DNA of 32,000 nt from assembly GCA_016699265.1 (NCBI GenBank), contig CP064967.1, positions 570,001-602,000 on the forward strand. Reading direction: 5' to 3'. Made by a program: the position numbers and the translations under genes. The notes below the pieces were generated by a model. The model saw only the letters and a list, made by a program, of their open reading frames with translations, ran no database searches and was not told the DNA's origin. This DNA comes from Candidatus Saccharimonadota bacterium (lineage in GTDB: Bacteria; Patescibacteriota; Microgenomatia; UBA1406; GWC2-37-13). This document shows, piece after piece, positions 5,159 through 12,072 of this stretch (positions are counted from its first letter, which is position 1; every line of letters starts with the position of its first letter).

Positions 5159-6959
5159 ATGATGACTCATTTAGAGCTTAGGAAACAGTTTAAGAACTTC
5201 TGGGAAAGCAAAGGACATAAAGAGGTGCCGCCAATCCCGCTCGTTCCACAGAACGATCCAACCACTCTCTTTACTGGATCCGGCATGCAGCAGCTCGTGC
5301 CAAATCTTCTAGGGGAACCCCACCCTTTAGGAACCAGACTTTACAACGCTCAACGCTCATTCAGATCGCAGGATATTGAAGAGATCGGAGACAACCGACA
5401 CACCACGATGTTTGAAATGATGGGTAACTGGTCGCTAGGCGACTACTTCAAGGAGGAACAGCTCTCTTGGTTTTATGAATTTCTTACAAAGCAACTTTCA
5501 TTACATTCTGAAAATCTCCATGTGACAATTTTTAAGGGCGGCTCTGGTGTTCCTCAGGATCTAGATTCAAAGAATATTTGGCTGAAGCTTGGCATTTCCG
5601 AGGATCGAATATATGAATATGATGATAAGAAAAACTGGTGGTCTCGTGCTGGTTCCATTACCAATATGCCAGTCGGTGAGATTGGCGGACCGGACTCCGA
5701 GGTATTCTTTGAGTTCAAACAGGTAGTCCATGATCCTGCCTTCGGTGAGAACTGTCATCCGAACTGTGACTGCGGAAGATTCCTAGAGATCGGCAACAAT
5801 GTTTTTATTCAGTACAAGAAAGAAGAGAACGGCTCCCTCACCGAACTTCCAAGTAAAAATGTGGACTTCGGAGGCGGTCTCGAAAGGCTCCTTGCTGCAG
5901 CAAATAATAACCCGGATGTTTTCCAGACCAACGTCTTTATTTCGATTATTCAATTAATCGAAGCAATCACCGGAAGAAAATACAGTGACCCTGCTGCACA
6001 AAACAGATTCGTGTTATCGCGGACCATATTAAGGCGGCGGTCTTTCTCATCAAGGATGGCGTTCGACCTCAAACAAAGAACAAGGATATGTGCTCCGTAG
6101 ACTTCTGCGAAGATCGGCAGTAAAGTATCGATCTTTGGTAAGTGCGTTTAATCCTGCAGATATCGCTAATGTTGCCAAGGGCGTAATCGATACGTACGAG
6201 GGAATTTACTTCGATGGTAAGGTCGATACTCCCGAGATTTCATCGTTTATTAAAGATGAGATGGATCGCTTCGGAAAAACGCTTGAGAAGGGACTTCGAG
6301 AAGCAGAGAAAATACAACAGATCGATGGTTCAAAGGCCTTTGATCTCTATCAGACCTTTGGCTTTCCTCTTGAAGTTACCGAAGAGTTGTTTAAAGAAAA
6401 GGGACAGAATATTGACCATGTTCAGTTTAGGACTCAGTTTGATAAACATAAGGATCTTTCTCGATCTGCATCTGCAGGTAAATTCAAGGGAGGTCTTGCC
6501 GACCACTCGGATCAAGTTCTTAAATACCATACTGCAACTCATCTTCTCCATCAGGCGCTGTTTGATGTATTTGGAAATGATGTTCGTCAGGAAGGGTCGA
6601 ACATCACCGGCGAACGTCTCCGATTTGATTTTTACTGCAAGATAAAACCTACAGAGGAACAAACTAATAAAATTGAGTCAATTATTAATGAAAAAATTAT
6701 GGAAGCTCTCCCGATGCGTTTTAAGCTCATGCAAAAAGAAGATGCTCTAAAGGTCGGCGCTCGTTCATTTTTTAGGGAAAAGTACCCAGATCAGGTTAAG
6801 GTATATTATATAGGAGGCACCGATGACCAACCCGAGACGGCTTACTCAAAGGAGTTCTGTGGAGGACCTCATGTGAAAAACACAAAGGAGATTGGATCGC
6901 TCACAATCTTTAAACTCGAAACAATCGGAAGCAACCTATTTCGAATATATGCGAAGTAA
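5159..6959 (+). CDS. alaS: Alanyl-tRNA synthetase, short form (catalytic, tRNA-recognition and editing domains, no C-Ala domain), with two apparent frame breaks
   Basis: HTTMFEMMGNWSLGDYF and the GGGLERL core. The stretch QIRVIADHIKAAVFLIKDGVRP is readable only in the third frame, between A-run 6000-6003 and about 6067-6069. Then SNKEQGYVLRRLLRR follows, and editing motifs HTATHLLHQAL and CGGPHV. Track fragments are 5159..6100 and 6090..6959. Confidence 0.9.
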
Positions 6960-7907: not shown

Positions 7908-7998
7908 TGAATCTTTCTCTTATCGAGGGTGAAGGATCTCATCGTATAATATTGAAGTGTTTCTATCTCTAATAGATCAAGGCACAAACAAAAAACTG

Positions 7999-8069
7999 TG
8001 ACCCTACGGGAATCGAACCCCGGTTTGCAGGATGAGAACCTGCCGTCCTAACCTCTAGACGATAAGGCC
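7999..8069 (-). tRNA. tRNA-Glu (anticodon CUC), no encoded CCA
   Basis: The reverse complement folds as a cloverleaf. Acceptor is GGCCTTA/TAGGGTC. The D arm is GTCT-AGAGGTTA-GGAC, typical of tRNA-Glu. Anticodon stem is GCAGG/CCTGC with loop TTCTCAT. The T arm is CGGGG-TTCGATT-CCCG, where the 3' strand is one C short. Confidence 0.85.
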
Positions 8070-8163
8070 ATTTTAGATCCGTTGTTTGACAAAAACAGAC
8101 CTGTCTAGTACCATTTTAGCACATCCCCAAGGCATGATCGGGGATTTATTTTTTATAACATAT

Positions 8164-8634
8164 ATGAAAGCACATCAACTAAAGATACAGCTAACTCAGG
8201 ATGGATTTGAGAAACTGCAAGCAGAGTTGAAGGATCTTAAAGAAAACAAAAAGCCTGCGGCAGTAGCACGATTATCCAAAGCAAGGTCCATGGGAGATCT
8301 CTCTGAGAATAGTGAATATCACGCAGCAAAGGAAGAGCTCGCCTATGCAGCGGGTCGTGTGAGTGAGGTTGAGACGATACTGAAGTATGCGAAGGTGGTT
8401 GCAGCGACAGGCTCTAAGCACAAAATTTCGTTGGGATCAAAGGTAAAAGTGATGACAGAAAATGGTGAGGAAGAATATGAAATTGTTGGAGAGTTTGAGG
8501 CAAACCCTGTTGAACGGAAGTTGTCTGCAACCTCCCCTATCGGTAAGGCTCTTCTCAATAAAGCGGTTGGAGAGACCGCAGATATCTCTGTTCCAGCAGG
8601 AACAAAGACCTACACTGTTGTTGATATTAACTGA
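8164..8634 (+). CDS. greA: Transcription elongation factor GreA
   Basis: MKAHQLKIQLTQDGFEKLQAELKDL ... GDLSENSEYHAAKEE, of GreA length when started at ATG 8164. The track's 8086 start is an upstream TTG extension. Confidence 0.9.
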   Translation: MKAHQLKIQLTQDGFEKLQAELKDLKENKKPAAVARLSKARSMGDLSENSEYHAAKEELAYAAGRVSEVETILKYAKVVAATGSKHKISLGSKVKVMTENGEEEYEIVGEFEANPVERKLSATSPIGKALLNKAVGETADISVPAGTKTYTVVDIN

Positions 8635-8648
8635 TCGTTTGCTATACT
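8621..8648 (+). promoter_or_regulatory. Sigma70-like promoter of the T-box leader
   Basis: TTGATA (8621-8626), 16-nt spacer, TATACT (8643-8648). Overlaps the greA 3' end. Confidence 0.5.
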
Positions 8649-8654
8649 CATTTC

Positions 8655-8884
8655 TTAAATACGTAGCGAACTAAGAATCGCATTGCTTGATTATCCGCCA
8701 AGAAGCGTACAAGCACGTAGCAGGAAGAAAAGGCCCACCATCTCCGCCCACGGCGAGATTTGACGAGCCGTAGTAGAACCTGACGGGTATAAGCCCGTAA
8801 CAGCAGTTAAGAGAAGTAATCAGGGTGGTACCACGCTTCATTCAATGAAACGTCCTTGAAAATAATATTTTCCAAGGATTTTAT
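8655..8884 (+). promoter_or_regulatory. T-box leader (tRNA-sensing riboswitch), putatively tRNA-Lys specific
   Basis: T-box sequence TAATCAGGGTGGTACCACG (8817-8835). The antiterminator is AGGG 8822-8825 / CCTT 8854-8857 plus ACG 8833-8835 / CGT 8851-8853, flanking a 7-nt TGGTACC bulge (8826-8832). A mutually exclusive terminator follows, and the leader lies upstream of an aaRS gene. Confidence 0.85.
8853..8882 (+). terminator. Intrinsic terminator of the T-box expression platform
   Basis: TCCTTGAAAAT (8853-8863) pairs with ATTTT-C-CAAGGA (8867-8878, one bulged C) and is followed by TTTT (8879-8882). The 3' arm contains the AAGGA Shine-Dalgarno of the next ORF. Confidence 0.75.
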
Positions 8885-9175
8885 ATGGTCGAACATAGAG
8901 AACATAAAGGTAGACATGTGCGTACAATCATTGTAAGAACACCCACCGAAGTTGAATTTATAACGGTTCAGTCTAGGCTGTCTATTGTCCCAGGTACAAA
9001 AACAACTTCCTTTACTTGGGGAGATCAGTCGGGCCTTCTATTGAATGGTCATCCAACAGAAATACGACACCTGTATGGAACTGTAAAATTTGGAGAACTT
9101 GATCCGGATGGATACGTTAGACTAATATTAACAACTCCGCATCTAACTGCGGTAATATATAACGCACATTTATGA
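8885..9175 (+). CDS. Hypothetical 96-aa protein, first gene downstream of the T-box
   Basis: Intact ORF with AAGGA 6 nt upstream of its ATG. Its stop overlaps the reconstructed lysK ATG (ATGA at 9172-9175). No family recognised. Confidence 0.55.
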   Translation: MVEHREHKGRHVRTIIVRTPTEVEFITVQSRLSIVPGTKTTSFTWGDQSGLLLNGHPTEIRHLYGTVKFGELDPDGYVRLILTTPHLTAVIYNAHL

Positions 9176-11500
9176 TCTGGGTAGATAGAGAAGTTAAAAA
9201 ATCAAAGAACTCAACCTTCCACAGGTGTGGATCGATGATATGAAGACGCCATCTGGTCGTGTGCATGTTGGCGCTCTTCGTGGTGTTGTGATTCACGATC
9301 TTTTATATAAAGCTTTTACCGAGCAGGATGATGATGTGAATTTTAGCTATGTCTTCAACAACATGGATCAGATGGATGCTATTCCCTCATACCTTGACTA
9401 TGAGAAATGGGAAAAATATGCAGGAATGCCTCTTTACAAAATTCCATCACCAGAACAAGGATTTGCTAACTTTGCAGAGTTCTATGCTAAGGAGTTTATA
9501 ACGGTTTTTGAATCAATCAACTGCCATCCGAAAATCATCTGGTCATCGGACCTATATGAGTCTGGTAAGATGAATGACGTTATTCGAGAAGCTCTCGACA
9601 AAGCAGCTAAAATCAGAGAACTCTACAAAACGATCTCAAAATCTGTGAGGCCTGACAACTGGTATCCATTTCAAATAATCTGTGAGAACTGTGGAAAAGT
9701 TGGAACAACTTCTGTTACGGGTTGGGATGGAACAAATGTTACCTATGTCTGTAATCCTGAGATGGTAGCCTGGGCAGAGGGATGTGGTAACAAGGTTCTA
9801 GAAGTCCATTCGATGGAAATGGCAAACTTCATGGAAGGTGGACTGGCCAGCACATTGGAAAAAATTGGCGTAACTATTGAAGGATCTGGAAAGATCATAT
9901 GTCTGCTGGAGGCTCGTACGACCTCTCATCATCGATAGCACGTGAGGCTCTTGGTTACGAAGCACCGTACGCACCCGCATATGAATGGTTTACAATAGGT
10001 GGGGCAAAAATGTCCTCTTCAAAAGGAATTGGAACCTCGGCAAAGGACGCTGCTGCAATTCTACCTCCCGATATCTTAAGATTTTTACTCGTGCGAACTC
10101 CTATCGAACGGTCTATTGACTTCAATCCCTTTGGAGATACTATTCCAAATATCTTCGATGACTACGATCGCTGTTTTTCTGCTTACTTTGACAAACTAGA
10201 AAATAAAGTACCAGAAGGTAAACAAGGCGAGGTAATTGAGGACTTTGCACGAATTGCAGAACTTTCACAGGTTAGACCTCTCCCAATGACAAGAATGTTT
10301 CTGCCAAGATTCAGAACTATCGTTAATCTTTTAAAAACGAGAGTTGAGATACTTGAATTTTTTGAAAAACAAAAAGGATCCGCATTAAATGATTATGAAA
10401 AAGAACTACTTGAGGAAAGAATAATTTACGCAGAAGGATATCTCAAAGCCTACGCAGAGGATGCGGATAAGGTAGAGCTTCTCGAGTCATTACCTGACGG
10501 TCTTGCACTTACCGAAAGTCAAAAAACGTTCTTACAGCTTCTCGGCACCGAACTTAAAAAACTAGCGACCGATGATAGAATGGCAATTCAGGACATTGTT
10601 TTTACAATTCTAAAAGAAAATAATCTTCAGGCTAAAGAAGTTTTCAAGGCATTTTATCAGATCCTTATTGGTAAGGAGTTCGGACCCAAGGCAGCAGATC
10701 TCATACTTGAGTTTGGTGTGAAAACAGTAATCTCTCGAATCGACAAAGTATTTGAGGAAAAAAATATTGATCATCCCGATAAGATAGATTCACTCTTCCC
10801 TATCTTAAAAGACTCTGACCTTTTTTCCATCGACGATTCAGTTCTTAGCAAATTCTCGTCTATTACTGTCGGAGTTGCAGTAATCAAGGGAGTAACGATA
10901 GGTAAATCGCCTCCTGAACTACAGAAGGAGATCGACGATTTTCTAACTCAGATGGGCATCCTTACTACAGAAATGATAAGTAGTTATCCTGAGATAAAAA
11001 GCTACCGAAAGCTATATAAGGCTACCGGTGTCGACTGGCATTCTCGAAGGCCATCACCTGAAGCCTTGCTCAGACGCTACGCCTTAAAAAAGGAGATACC
11101 GTCTATTAATTCATGTGTCGGTGCCTATAACCTGATCGTGATGAAACATAGAATTTCTGTTGGAGCGTTTGATCTTGATCAATTAAGTCTACCGACGATA
11201 CTTAGATTTGCAAAGGAAGGCGAGGATATTCATTTACTTGGGGATGTAGAGCCAACTAAGTATGGGGCAGGTGAATTGGCCTACTTCGATCAGCTCGGGG
11301 GATACAATATTGATTTTAATTACCGCGACTCCAAGCACTCAGCCGTTACTGAAAGAACGAGAGATATCTTAATAAATACGGAGGGTGTATTCGACATATC
11401 TCCAAAGCAGGTTGAGCAAGTGTTGAAGGAGACGATTGAGATTATCACAAAGTACTGTGGTGGTACCGTAGAGAAGGTCGGCATCGTCACCGAAACTTGA
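9172..11500 (+). CDS. lysK: Class I lysyl-tRNA synthetase fused to a C-terminal B3/4 (PheRS-beta-like) domain, with five apparent frame breaks
   Basis: Reconstructed product: MIWVDREVKK|IKELNLPQVWIDDMKTPSGRVHVGALRG ... GCGNK|GSRSPFDGNGKL|WKVDWPAHWKK|IGVTIEGSGK|DHMSAGGSYD ... KMSSSKG (KMSKS-type). Corrections are needed near 9196-9201, 9792-9795, 9830, 9859-9864 and 9893. The last ~230 aa match the solo B3/4 family pattern (RPSPEALLRRYALKKEIPSINSCVGAYNLIVMKHRISVGAFDLD). Confidence 0.85.
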
Positions 11501-11505
11501 CACAT

Positions 11506-12072
11506 ATGATTACACGAGATAAAGCTCTAGAGATCGTTAACTCTAAACTAACTACGAAGAATTTAATCAGTCATTGTCTAGCTACTGAAGCTTCTATGAG
11601 GGCTCTAGCTAAACACTTCAATGAAGATCCGGACAGGTGGGGACTTGTAGGCCTTATGCATGATGCTGACTGGGATGTCACCCGAAACGATATCGACCAA
11701 CATACTCACGAAACAGTAAAGTGGCTTAAAGAGGCAGGAGAAGATGATGAGTCTGTGCTTCAGGCAATTCTGTCACATAATTACAAGAACAATGGAGCAA
11801 ACCCCCCACAAAATAATATGGAGTGGTCTCTCTATTGTTGCGATGAACTTACTGGCTTTATTGTTGCAGTTGCGCTTATTCGACCCGAAAAGAAGTTGGA
11901 GTTAGTAGAAGTGAAATCGATTCTCAAGCGCTTTCCTCAAAAGGCGTTTGCTGCAGGGGTGCATCGGGAACAAATTCAACTCTGTGAAGAAAAACTAGGA
12001 ATCAAACTCGAAGAATTCGTTACCCTCACACTAAATGCAATGAAAGAAATCTCTCCCTCAATCGGCCTTTAA
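11506..12072 (+). CDS. HD-domain metal-dependent phosphohydrolase
   Basis: The H...HD signature (ISHCLATEA ... GLMHDADWD) in an all-helical small protein. ATG 11506 is preferred over the TTG at 11497 that overlaps the lysK stop. Confidence 0.7.
   Translation: MITRDKALEIVNSKLTTKNLISHCLATEASMRALAKHFNEDPDRWGLVGLMHDADWDVTRNDIDQHTHETVKWLKEAGEDDESVLQAILSHNYKNNGANPPQNNMEWSLYCCDELTGFIVAVALIRPEKKLELVEVKSILKRFPQKAFAAGVHREQIQLCEEKLGIKLEEFVTLTLNAMKEISPSIGL

What the first reader, a model, noticed from the sequence alone, without database searches (positions are those of the whole stretch)
8655..8884. T-box riboswitch upstream of a class I lysyl-tRNA synthetase operon in a CPR-like genome
- **Conserved core:** the 3' half is textbook. 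It has the T-box sequence TAATCAGGGTGGTACCACG and an antiterminator with the 7-nt UGGUACC bulge. UGGU would pair with an ACCA 3' end that has discriminator A, as in tRNA-Lys.
- **Switch:** a mutually exclusive terminator (8853-8878 plus U-tract) follows.
- **Dual control:** the terminator's 3' arm also sequesters the AAGGA ribosome-binding site of the next ORF, so control could be both transcriptional and translational.
- **Context:** T-box control of a class I lysK has been described in the Bacillus cereus group. I am not aware that it is established for Patescibacteria-type genomes.
Basis: partly seen in the sequence, partly recalled or inferred. Interest (0 to 1): 0.7.

Follow-up and report, generated by a model that had tools for sequence, protein, structure and literature searches.

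The report
Stripped-down lysine T-box riboswitch in CPR
The 230-base leader is a real but unusually pared-down tRNA-sensing "T-box" RNA switch, specific for lysine tRNA, that controls the lysyl-tRNA synthetase operon of a candidate-phyla-radiation bacterium; the standard Rfam model misses every member of its lineage tested here at its curated threshold.

Summary
Window 8655-8884 is the leader between greA and a small ORF (ORF96) that overlaps the start of a class I lysK. It has its own promoter.

- **Core:** a perfect T-box core is present, with a 7-nt UGGUACC bulge between helices A1 and A2. A mutually exclusive hairpin (8853-8878) buries the AAGGA ribosome-binding site.
- **Database score:** Rfam scores it 25.8 bits against a gathering score of 93.
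- **Relatives:** 18 other distinct homologous leaders from Microgenomates lysK loci share one architecture with strong covariation. A profile built without the window's clade finds the window at E = 5e-8 and 2e-6.
- **Specificity:** the specifier is AAG followed by A (lysine), or AAA followed by G in one relative.
- **What is missing:** in the window's clade Stem I has shrunk to a 4-bp hairpin with the codon in its terminal loop. The tRNA-elbow platform, K-turn and Stem III are absent.
- **Expression platform:** distant relatives have strong terminators (U7) with the ribosome-binding site in the 3' arm. The window's hairpin is weak (-8.5 kcal/mol, U4), so control here is probably mainly translational.

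Verdict: a new variant of a known kind. The tRNA-Lys discriminator base could not be checked. lysK is frameshifted in the window only, most likely through assembly errors.

The parts
8621..8648 (+). Promoter: TTGATA (8621-26), 16-nt spacer, extended -10 TGcTATACT (-10 hexamer 8643-48), overlapping the end of greA
   Evidence: 10 of 12 matches with TG before the -10. A -10-like hexamer lies in the same position in all 19 homologous leaders. The first helix (P0) starts 14-17 nt after the start of the -10 hexamer in 17 of the 19 leaders (22 in L053; the larger L163 figure reflects my choice of an upstream TATACT).
8660..8719 (+). Base helix P0 (UACGU 8660-64 with ACGUA 8715-19). It encloses Stem I and hairpin B.
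   Evidence: All 5 pairs show changes on both sides across the 19 leaders: UACG/CGUA, AAGCC/GGCUU, AGAC/GUCU, ACGCG/CGCGU (helix 1). RNAalifold predicts it independently on 7 close leaders.
8666..8681 (+). Ultrashort Stem I: 4-bp hairpin GCGA/UCGC with an 8-nt terminal loop ACUAAGAA. The specifier codon AAG is at 8673-75 and the conserved purine A at 8676.
   Evidence: UAAGA is invariant in the 7 leaders of the close clade, and the stem changes C-G to U-A. It aligns with the 3' side of the specifier loop (C-AAG-A) of relatives that keep a distal Stem I.
8685..8714 (+). Hairpin B, a variable insertion between Stem I and the 3' strand of P0
   Evidence: GCUUG/CAAGC in the window corresponds to GUCCG/CGGAC in L002. 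It folds in every leader that has it and is absent in 7 of the 19.
8721..8782 (+). Stem II: lower helix CAGG 8721-24 with CCUG 8779-82; S-turn-type purine motifs AAGAAAA 8725-31 and AGUAGAA 8772-78; variable distal hairpin 8732-69
   Evidence: Three of 4 pairs show changes on both sides (helix 3). GAA...AGUA matches the Stem II consensus of RF00230. A related motif (GAGAAA ... AUAGAAA) is seen in the Ser T-box of L076, so it is structural and not a codon.
8784..8804 (+). Stem IIA (CGGG 8784-87 with CCCG 8794-97) and F-box-like CCGUAA (8795-8800), followed by the conserved CAGC
   Evidence: The helix is 96% paired, with C-G changed to U-A in L087 (helix 4). Distant relatives carry the canonical F-box CCGUUA. 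Rfam aligns this stretch to its IIA positions. IIB pairing is not established.
8805..8821 (+). Purine-rich 17-nt linker in place of Stem III
   Evidence: No structure is predicted (0.0 kcal/mol) in the window, L163, L002, L166 and L165. L084 and L085 have one hairpin here and distant relatives have two.
8818..8859 (+). T-box sequence and antiterminator/antisequestrator: A1 8822-25 with 8854-57 (extendable to 8820 with 8859), bulge UGGUACC 8826-32 (UGGU 8826-29), A2 8833-35 with 8851-53 plus an upper hairpin
   Evidence: -9.7 kcal/mol for 8818-8860. A1 and A2 are 100% paired in the 19 leaders, with A-U/G-U alternation.
8853..8884 (+). Sequestrator / weak terminator hairpin 8853-8878, SD AAGGA 8874-78 in its 3' arm, UUUU 8879-82, 6-nt spacer to AUG 8885
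   Evidence: -8.5 to -8.8 kcal/mol, with 3 G-C pairs. In relatives the homologous hairpin is -19 to -36 kcal/mol and is followed by U7.
8885..9175 (+). ORF96, the first regulated gene: a conserved small protein of unknown function. Its stop codon overlaps the lysK start (ATGA).
   Evidence: 28-55% identity in L163, L034, L031. No Pfam or NCBIfam match.
9172..11500 (+). lysK: class I lysyl-tRNA synthetase with a C-terminal B3_4 domain (777 aa in relatives). In the window it is broken by five single-base deletions.
   Evidence: 95% identity to P0001. One search lists the deletions at 9195, 9790, 9831, 9858 and 9889. At the three sites that could be compared (9195, 9831, 9858), four other assemblies of the same or a closely related species each carry the extra base.
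11497..12072 (+). HD-domain gene overlapping the lysK stop by 4 nt; probably the last gene of the operon
   Evidence: The arrangement is the same in L001, L162, L165 and L166.

Best explanation
Window 8655-8884 is the 5' leader of an ORF96-lysK-HD operon. It is a lysine-specific T-box riboswitch of reduced architecture.

**Shown.**
- It carries a T-box core and a mutually exclusive downstream hairpin.
- It is homologous to a family of T-box leaders found at lysK loci in Microgenomates.
- The Lys codon AAG plus a purine sits at the specifier position.
- Stem II with an S-turn-type motif and Stem IIA with an F-box-like sequence are kept.
- The Stem I distal platform, the K-turn and Stem III are missing.

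**Inferred mechanism.** The anticodon of tRNA-Lys (CUU, or UUU with wobble) pairs with AAG, which is presented in the terminal loop of a 4-bp Stem I. The Stem II purines buttress this pairing. If the tRNA is uncharged, its 3' ACCA end pairs with UGGU (8826-29) and stabilises helices A1 and A2. That holds CCUU(GA) 8854-59 away from the ribosome-binding site AAGGA (8874-78). ORF96 is then translated and, through the ATGA overlap, lysK as well. If the tRNA is charged or absent, 8853-58 pairs with 8873-78 and buries the ribosome-binding site.

The hairpin is weak, has only four U after it, and is nearly iso-energetic with the antiterminator. In this organism the switch therefore probably acts mainly on translation initiation, with at most leaky termination. 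In distant relatives the same hairpin is also a strong intrinsic terminator.
For: - **Anatomy:**
- **Rfam:** T-box is the only family hit on the leader (E = 7.6e-4). Homologous leaders in relatives score higher: L053 73.7 bits (E = 3.6e-14), L015 47.3, L087 44.1, L007 40.9, L166 33.5.
- **Shared plan:** 19 distinct leaders parse into one architecture.
- **Covariation:** on that alignment 94.4% of cells are paired, against 25-48% when partners are slid. 16 of 27 pairs change on both sides. 0 of 500 shuffles reach any of the five measures.
- **Independent fold:** RNAalifold recovers P0, the Stem I hairpin, hairpin B and IIA on the 7 leaders of the close clade.
- **Leave-clade-out HMM:** E = 4.8e-8 and 2.3e-6, with no other significant hit in the window.
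- **Specifier:** AAG+A in 18 leaders and AAA+G in one, always next to the 3' strand of the Stem I helix.
- **Operon content:** lysK is always present. In Roizmanbacteria the operon also holds an ArgE/DapE-type deacylase, a lysine-pathway family.
- **UGGN tracks the amino acid:** the bulge is UGGU in all Lys leaders and UGGC in a Ser-type T-box before serS in CPR3.
- **Ribosome-binding site:** it lies in the hairpin's 3' arm in 15 of 19 leaders.
- **Energetics:** hairpin -8.5 to -8.8 and antiterminator -9.7 kcal/mol. TBDB means for Lys T-boxes are terminator -21.0 +/- 5.9 and antiterminator -7.4 +/- 2.2.
- **Literature:** near-balanced conformers and short Stem I are described as traits of translational T-boxes (PMC7583486).
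Against: - The Rfam score is far below the gathering score (25.8 against 93). It is only E = 0.049 window-wide.
- Three elements regarded as important in canonical T-boxes are absent: the elbow-binding platform, the K-turn and Stem III.
- A 4-bp Stem I is thermodynamically marginal.
- The covariation alignment (A3) was curated by hand to the proposed structure, with variable hairpins removed. It therefore leans towards that structure.
- No tRNA-Lys gene from this or a related genome could be obtained. The anticodon and discriminator are assumed from general bacterial tRNA-Lys knowledge.
- IIB pseudoknot pairing was not found.
- Close relatives with the same ultrashort Stem I (L002, L166, L084, L085) have strong terminators. 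The translational reading therefore does not hold for the whole clade.
- There are no expression or binding data.
Confidence: 0.85

Rival explanations
1. It is a classical transcription-attenuating T-box. The hairpin 8853-8878 plus the U-run is a conditional intrinsic terminator, and burial of the ribosome-binding site is incidental.
For: The homologous hairpins of relatives are convincing terminators, at -19 to -36 kcal/mol followed by U7. L084 and L085 have a terminator with no ribosome-binding site in it and no ORF for about 130 nt. The window keeps UUUUAU after the stem.
Against: The window's stem is -8.5 kcal/mol with 3 G-C pairs. It has lost the G-C base pairs present in relatives and has only 4 U. 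That is about 2 SD weaker than TBDB Lys terminators. The + strand scan did not call it a terminator. L165 and L082, in the same clade, have no U-tract at all and the hairpin abuts the lysK AUG.
Confidence: 0.2
2. It is a decaying, no longer regulatory relic of a T-box. Loss of the Stem I platform, K-turn and Stem III, together with a weak hairpin, gives constitutive expression.
For: Several canonical modules are absent and the OFF hairpin is weak. The T-box is patchy among lysK loci: the leader HMM hit about two dozen of 166 loci, and many have none.
Against: UAAGA, the T-box and the F-box region are invariant, and the stems carry compensatory changes. The leader is 99-100% identical in six other assemblies of the same or a near-identical strain. 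Antiterminator and sequestrator remain mutually exclusive and energetically balanced.
Confidence: 0.07
3. It is a T-box specific for a tRNA other than Lys. Candidates are Glu (GAA inside GGAAGAA at 8723-29, with a tRNA-Glu gene 600 nt upstream), or Gln/Arg from the neighbouring reading frames CAA and AGA of the specifier loop.
For: GGAAGAA is invariant. tRNA-Glu(CUC) is syntenic upstream of greA in 58 loci. The frames CAA and AGA overlap AAG in the distant relatives.
Against: GAAGAA is the 5' half of the Stem II S-turn motif. It pairs in register with AGUAGAA between covarying helix strands and matches the Rfam Stem II consensus. A related motif (GAGAAA ... AUAGAAA) occurs in a Ser-type T-box. 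The syntenic tRNA-Glu reads GAG, not GAA. In the window's clade the loop reads UAAGA, so CAA is absent. In L087 the loop reads CAAAG, so AGA is absent. Only a Lys codon is present in all 19. The regulated gene is lysK.
Confidence: 0.03
4. It is a chance resemblance to the T-box consensus within an ordinary intergenic region.
For: The Rfam score is below the gathering score.
Against: 0 of 100 shuffles match the core pattern. The leave-clade-out HMM gives E = 5e-8 and 2e-6. Covariation is strong. The position after greA and before lysK is conserved.
Confidence: 0.01

Closest known systems
Canonical transcriptional T-box riboswitch (Rfam RF00230; B. subtilis tyrS and glyQS type)
   Same: - T-box sequence with a 7-nt UGGNACC bulge between helices A1 and A2.
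- A competing downstream hairpin.
- A specifier codon followed by a purine.
- Stem II with a GAA/AGUA S-turn motif.
- Stem IIA and an F-box.
- Location in the leader of an aminoacyl-tRNA synthetase gene.
   Different: - No long Stem I with an AG bulge and distal loop (elbow platform).
- No K-turn and no Stem III.
- The hairpin is weak, has only four U, and contains the ribosome-binding site.
- The score is 25.8 bits against the gathering score of 93.
- The A1 3' strand is CCUU rather than CCC, so it doubles as an anti-SD.
T-box controlling class I lysK in the Bacillus cereus group (Foy et al. 2010, PMC2916919)
   Same: A Lys T-box upstream of a class I LysRS. It is one of very few cases of T-box control of LysRS.
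   Different: - It is a Firmicute element described as a canonical transcription antiterminator.
- There lysK is a second, accessory LysRS beside a class II enzyme. The paper stresses that T-box-regulated LysRS is 'invariably accompanied by a second' LysRS.
- In the window the LysRS is a B3_4 fusion in a CPR genome. Whether a second LysRS exists could not be checked.
- The architecture here is reduced.
- Sequence homology between the two leaders was not tested.
Ultrashort-Stem-I translational T-boxes of actinobacterial ileS (M. tuberculosis and M. smegmatis; Sherwood 2015 as cited in PMC7583486 and bioRxiv 10.1101/2023.02.28.530422)
   Same: - The specifier is presented in the terminal loop of a very short Stem I.
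- There is no elbow platform.
- Stem II with an S-turn and the IIA/B region are retained.
- The ribosome-binding site is sequestered by the alternative hairpin.
   Different: - That class is stated to regulate only ileS and to respond to tRNA-Ile. Here the gene is lysK and the codon is AAG.
- The host is a CPR bacterium, not an actinobacterium.
- The ileS elements keep Stem III. The window lacks it.
- Close relatives with the same ultrashort Stem I carry strong U7 terminators.
- The reduction can be traced within one orthologous locus, from long (L087, L053) through intermediate (Roizmanbacteria) to ultrashort. This suggests an independent origin.

Membership tests
T-box riboswitch (RF00230) | T-box sequence forming a 7-nt bulge 5'-UGGN-ACC-3' between helices A1 and A2 | tested here: met
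   UGGUACC lies at 8826-32. It is flanked by A1 (8822-25 with 8854-57) and A2 (8833-35 with 8851-53). Both helices are 100% paired in the 19 leaders.
T-box riboswitch (RF00230) | A mutually exclusive terminator or sequestrator that uses the 3' strand of the antiterminator | tested here: met
   Hairpin 8853-8878 reuses 8853-58. Energies are -8.8 against -9.7 kcal/mol.
T-box riboswitch (RF00230) | A specifier codon followed by a purine at the 3' end of the Stem I specifier loop, matching the amino acid of the regulated gene | tested here: met
   AAG is at 8673-75 and A at 8676. The position is homologous to C-AAG-A of relatives, and L087 has AAA-G. The regulated gene is lysK.
T-box riboswitch (RF00230) | A long Stem I with an AG bulge and distal loop (interdigitated T-loops) that docks the tRNA elbow | tested here: not met
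   Stem I is a 4-bp hairpin with nothing above the specifier. The platform motifs (AGAGA, GGUGA) are present in the homologous leaders L087, L053 and L042.
T-box riboswitch (RF00230) | A K-turn (GA motif) at the base of Stem I | tested here: not met
   There are no tandem G-A pairs between P0 and Stem I in the window. The junction is three-way, joining P0, Stem I and hairpin B. L053 keeps a K-turn-like UGAUG...GGA. This was judged by sequence inspection only.
T-box riboswitch (RF00230) | Stem II with an S-turn (loop E) motif | tested here: met
   AAGAAAA and AGUAGAA lie between the covarying strands CAGG and CCUG (helix 3). They agree with the GAA...AGUA of the Rfam consensus. The three-dimensional motif itself is inferred.
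T-box riboswitch (RF00230) | Stem IIA/B pseudoknot containing the F-box (CCGUUA) | tested here: inconclusive
   The IIA helix and CCGUAA (one mismatch) are present, and relatives have CCGUUA. No conserved IIB pairing was identified.
T-box riboswitch (RF00230) | Stem III preceding the T-box sequence | tested here: not met
   A 17-nt unstructured purine-rich linker occupies 8805-21 (0.0 kcal/mol). Stem III is present in L084 and L085 and in all distant relatives.
T-box riboswitch (RF00230) | A score at or above Rfam's gathering threshold | tested here: not met
   The window scores 25.8 bits against 93. None of 15 related loci reaches the threshold either; the best is 73.7 bits.
T-box riboswitch (RF00230) | N of UGGN is complementary to the discriminator base of the cognate tRNA of the same genome | not testable with these tools
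   No tRNA-Lys gene is in the window or in the 178 fetched loci. Indirect support: UGGU occurs in all Lys leaders and UGGC in a Ser-type T-box of CPR3. This fits A73 for tRNA-Lys and G73 for tRNA-Ser, which is general knowledge.
T-box riboswitch (RF00230) | Binding of uncharged cognate tRNA switches the expression platform | not testable with these tools
   This needs binding, transcription and translation assays.
Ultrashort-Stem-I translational T-box class | The specifier lies in the terminal loop of a short helix that replaces Stem I, and the elbow platform is missing | tested here: met
   The hairpin is GCGA[ACUAAGAA]UCGC at 8666-81. The class definition is taken from bioRxiv 10.1101/2023.02.28.530422.
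Ultrashort-Stem-I translational T-box class | Regulates ileS and responds to tRNA-Ile (stated for all known members) | tested here: not met
   The regulated operon contains lysK and the codon is AAG.
Ultrashort-Stem-I translational T-box class | A sequestrator hairpin that occludes the Shine-Dalgarno sequence, rather than a terminator | tested here: inconclusive
   AAGGA lies in the 3' arm and the hairpin is weak, which fits. However, UUUU follows the stem, and clade members L002, L166, L084 and L085 have strong U7-U8 terminators.
Rho-independent terminator | A stable G+C-rich stem directly followed by a run of about 6-8 U | tested here: not met
   The stem is -8.5 kcal/mol with 3 G-C pairs. 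The tail is UUUUAUAU. It was not called on the + strand.

The most novel reading that the evidence does not exclude
Microgenomates (CPR) carry their own lineage of lysine T-boxes in which one hairpin serves as both intrinsic terminator and Shine-Dalgarno sequestrator. In this lineage Stem I was progressively dismantled at one orthologous locus, from long through intermediate to a terminal-loop specifier, while strong terminators were kept.

If so, T-boxes without the tRNA-elbow platform can still make a co-transcriptional decision. In the window's subclade they also lack the K-turn and Stem III. This runs against the current view that transcriptional T-boxes need the platform. It would also put the cell's possibly only LysRS under T-box control.
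Probability: 0.35. Interest if true: 0.72.

Novelty: new variant of a known kind. Interest (0 to 1): 0.6.

Why it matters
- **Annotation gap.** T-boxes have not been described for CPR/Patescibacteria in the literature I could search: 0 papers combine the terms. All 15 related loci tested fall below Rfam's gathering score. Annotation that relies on that threshold would therefore miss them.
- **A natural deletion series.** One orthologous locus shows a full-length Stem I, an intermediate one, and a 4-bp hairpin with the codon in its loop. Stem III is also lost in one subclade. This shows how little RNA a working T-box may need.
- **A wider class.** The 'ultrashort' design was said to be confined to actinobacterial ileS. 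This extends it to lysK and to another phylum.
- **A test of current thinking.** Relatives that combine short Stem I with strong terminators are test cases for the idea that the elbow platform is essential for transcriptional T-boxes.
- **A rare target.** LysRS is rarely T-box controlled (four species in Foy 2010). AAG specifiers are 22 of 23,535 entries in TBDB.
- **Limits.** The kind of element is well known. None of this is experimentally tested here.

Tried and rejected
- **GGAAGAA as specifier.** I first considered GGAAGAA (8723-29) as the specifier region (AAG+A or GAA). I rejected it once relatives showed it to be the 5' half of the Stem II S-turn motif between covarying strands.
- **Rfam's own alignment.** Rfam's placement of Stem II and of an 18-nt 'Stem I' in the window has non-canonical pairs. 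The comparative model supersedes it.
- **Programmed frameshifting.** Both N-terminal breaks in lysK fall at Lys codons, so I considered programmed -1 frameshifting. I rejected it because at the three sites that could be compared (9195, 9831, 9858) four other assemblies of the same or a closely related species each carry the extra base, two of them in A runs. The window also has indels in alaS and tRNA-Glu.
- **Search for tRNA-Lys.** ARAGORN on the window, on 166 loci and on 12 further loci reaching 10 kb beyond both window ends found only tRNA-Glu.
- **IIB pseudoknot and a mini Stem III.** I looked for a IIB partner of the IIA loop and for a small Stem III in 8805-21. Nothing conserved turned up (plus inspection).
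- **Covariance model not built.** HMM and pair counts answered the question.
Full report
**Setting.** The finding lies between greA (8086-8634) and a 96-codon ORF (8885-9175). The stop codon of that ORF overlaps the start of a class I lysyl-tRNA synthetase gene through an ATGA overlap at 9172-9175. An HD-domain gene overlaps the synthetase's stop codon.

The synthetase carries a C-terminal B3_4 domain. It is 95% identical to a 777-aa protein annotated from a Microgenomates MAG. Hundreds of homologues come from Roizmanbacteria and other Microgenomates. The 'CPR-like genome' and 'class I lysK operon' parts of the finding are therefore correct.

A sigma-70-type promoter with an extended -10 sits at the end of greA: TTGATA, 16 nt, TGcTATACT at 8621-8648.

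**Check of the observation.**
- The T-box sequence is at 8817-8835.
- The 7-nt bulge UGGUACC (8826-32) lies between A1 (AGGG 8822-25 with CCUU 8854-57) and A2 (ACG 8833-35 with CGU 8851-53).
- A competing hairpin at 8853-8878 has a 3' arm that contains AAGGA (8874-78), 6 nt before AUG 8885.

The composite core pattern occurs once in the window and in none of 100 shuffles.

There is no hit at the gathering score. A T-box alignment reaches 25.8 bits against 93. E is 7.6e-4 for a 500-nt search and 0.049 for the whole window. The model deletes nearly all of Stem I and all of Stem III.

**Comparative evidence.** I collected lysK loci from genomes and metagenomes and by exact-protein look-ups.
- The window's leader is identical in L001, L083 and L178.
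L082 and L162 add partial copies.
- Twelve more distant Microgenomates carry an evidently homologous leader directly after greA. Ten of these are Roizmanbacteria-type, L087 is one more, and L053 is from Gottesmanbacteria.
- Rfam recognises several of these as T-box with good E-values but still below the gathering score: L053 73.7 bits (3.6e-14), L015 47.3, L087 44.1, L007 40.9, L166 33.5.

All 19 distinct leaders parse into the same order of elements:
- base helix P0;
- Stem I with a specifier loop;
- an optional hairpin B;
- Stem II with AAGAAA and AGUAGAA purine motifs;
- Stem IIA with the F-box;
- a variable Stem III region;
- the T-box and antiterminator;
- a terminator-like hairpin.

I built an alignment of the alignable strands, with variable hairpins removed. 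It was curated by hand, so it leans towards the model. On it, 94.4% of cells are paired, against 25-48% when partners are slid. 16 of 27 pairs change on both sides, and no shuffle reaches the observed values.

Two unbiased checks agree with this model.
- RNAalifold on the seven leaders of the close clade recovers P0, the Stem I hairpin, hairpin B and IIA.
- An HMM built only from the twelve distant leaders finds the window at 8695-8807 (E = 4.8e-8) and 8816-8876 (E = 2.3e-6), with no other significant hit in the window.

**Specificity.** In the distant relatives the 3' side of the specifier loop reads C-AAG-A immediately before the 3' strand of the Stem I helix. L087 reads C-AAA-G. In the window's clade the loop reads U-AAG-A. 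A lysine codon followed by a purine is the only reading common to all 19.
- The regulated operon always contains lysK.
- In Roizmanbacteria the operon also encodes an ArgE/DapE-type M20 deacylase, a family that includes lysine-pathway enzymes.
- The invariant GGAAGAA, which I first suspected, belongs to the Stem II S-turn motif. It matches the Rfam Stem II consensus, and a related motif is seen in a Ser-type T-box.
- The bulge is UGGU in every Lys leader. It is UGGC in a T-box preceding a serB-like gene and serS in a CPR3 genome. This fits discriminators A73 and G73, which is general tRNA knowledge.
No tRNA-Lys gene is present in the window, in 166 related loci, or in 12 loci extending 10 kb beyond the window.

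**What is unusual.** Three things stand out.
- **A series of Stem I reduction.**
  - L087, L053 and L042 keep a long Stem I with AGAGA and GGUGA platform motifs. L053 also keeps a K-turn-like base.
  - The Roizmanbacteria type keeps only a 4-8 bp hairpin above the specifier loop.
  - The window's clade has nothing above it. The codon sits in the 8-nt terminal loop of a 4-bp hairpin at 8666-81.
  - This is the 'ultrashort' design, described as confined to translational ileS T-boxes (bioRxiv 10.1101/2023.02.28.530422; PMC7583486).
- **No Stem III.** The window and four of its relatives have a 17-nt purine-rich linker in its place.
- **Ribosome-binding site inside the hairpin.**
  - GAGGA or AAGGA lies in the 3' arm of the terminator-like hairpin in 15 of 19 leaders.
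  - In 13 leaders the hairpin is -19 to -36 kcal/mol and is followed by U7. In 12 of these the start codon comes directly after the U-run. The exception, L014, has a separate ribosome-binding site and AUG further downstream.
  - The T-box 3' strand CCUU thus acts as an anti-SD.
  - These relatives combine platform-less Stem I with convincing terminators. This is at odds with the generalisation that transcriptional T-boxes need the platform.

**The window's expression platform.**
- The hairpin is the weakest of the family, at -8.5 to -8.8 kcal/mol.
- It has lost the G-C base of the stem and is followed by UUUUAU.
- The antiterminator (8818-8860) is -9.7 kcal/mol. With the antiterminator enforced, the platform is only 3.5 kcal/mol above the minimum free energy.
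- TBDB gives -21.0 +/- 5.9 and -7.4 +/- 2.2 kcal/mol for the terminators and antiterminators of Lys T-boxes.
- Two clade members (L165, L082) have no U-run at all, and the hairpin abuts the lysK AUG.

I therefore favour translational control in the window: tRNA-dependent release of the ribosome-binding site of ORF96, passed on to lysK by the ATGA overlap. Any termination is probably leaky. This step is inference.

**State of the gene.** In the window lysK is interrupted by five single-base deletions, at 9195, 9790, 9831, 9858 and 9889. alaS is split, and tRNA-Glu lacks a G. At the three sites that could be compared (9195, 9831, 9858), four other assemblies of the same or a closely related species each carry the extra base, two of them in A runs. 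These are most likely errors of this assembly and not pseudogenisation. The leader itself is unaffected.

**Comparison with what is known.** T-box control of a class I lysK is established for the B. cereus group. LysRS T-boxes were found in only four species, always beside a second LysRS (PMC2916919). TBDB lists 170 Lys T-boxes of 23,535, and only 22 have AAG. No paper in the searchable library combines 'T-box' with Patescibacteria or candidate phyla radiation. This does not exclude database entries.

The element is a member of the T-box kind by its core, its specifier logic, Stem II/IIA and homology. It fails four canonical features: the elbow platform, the K-turn, Stem III and the Rfam threshold. 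It also fails the ileS criterion of the ultrashort class. I file it as a new variant of a known kind.

**Verdict.** Confidence that this is a functional Lys T-box is about 0.85. Confidence in the mainly translational mode for this window is about 0.5-0.6. Interest is 0.6.

Noticed in passing
window 9172-11500 (sites 9195, 9790, 9831, 9858, 9889); also 6090-6100 and 8007: lysK is broken by five single-base deletions. alaS is split into 313 + 289 aa, and tRNA-Glu lacks one G. At the three lysK sites that could be compared, other assemblies of the same or a closely related species carry the extra base. These look like homopolymer errors of this assembly.
   Followed up: yes
window 8885-9175; L163 2721-3017; L034 3708-4004; L031 3714-4004: ORF96 is a conserved small protein (28-55% identity) with no Pfam or NCBIfam match. 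It always overlaps the lysK start. In L031 and L034 it is present without any T-box.
   Followed up: partly
L002 3954-4004; L166 781-831: In two relatives ORF96 is replaced by a 16-codon ORF (MQNYCFKLNTNLEYLI). It starts right after the terminator's U7 and still overlaps the lysK start by ATGA, as if kept only for translational coupling.
   Followed up: no
window about 10900-11500 (C-terminal third of lysK): The class I LysRS is fused to a B3_4 domain, the fold of the PheRS beta subunit. The 777-aa fusion is shared by the >2000 proteins with E <= 1e-20, judging from the 120 listed hits, which are mostly about 770-790 aa and all carry B3_4.
   Followed up: no
window 10500-10820: This is a hypervariable stretch inside lysK. 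77 of the 170 differences to the 98%-identical L083 cluster here, and the segment is replaced by a shorter one in L173.
   Followed up: no
L015 1846-3994; L087 1157-2993: In Roizmanbacteria the Lys T-box precedes a three-gene operon. It encodes an unknown or weakly GNAT-like protein, an ArgE/DapE-type M20 deacylase, and lysK.
   Followed up: partly
L076 7540-7740: A CPR3 genome has a T-box with a UGGC bulge and a U7 terminator upstream of a HAD (serB-like) gene and serS. The CPR T-boxes seen here are thus not limited to lysine.
   Followed up: partly
L002, L007, L008, L010, L014, L015, L016, L025, L028, L053, L084, L087, L145, L148, L166: None of the T-boxes in these 15 CPR loci reaches Rfam's gathering score of 93 bits (best 73.7). 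Annotation pipelines that rely on that threshold would miss them.
   Followed up: yes
window 7998-8070 (- strand) and 58 related loci: tRNA-Glu(CUC) is conserved just upstream of greA. In L175 synteny with the window ends at about 8001, the 3' end of this tRNA. An AlbA_2/Schlafen-like gene lies beyond, which may be an insertion or rearrangement point.
   Followed up: no
L042 150-520: This genome, labelled Paceibacterota, has a T-box with a long Stem I (AGAGA, GGUGAAA) and a UGGU bulge about 2.8 kb upstream of lysK. Its specifier was not determined.
   Followed up: no
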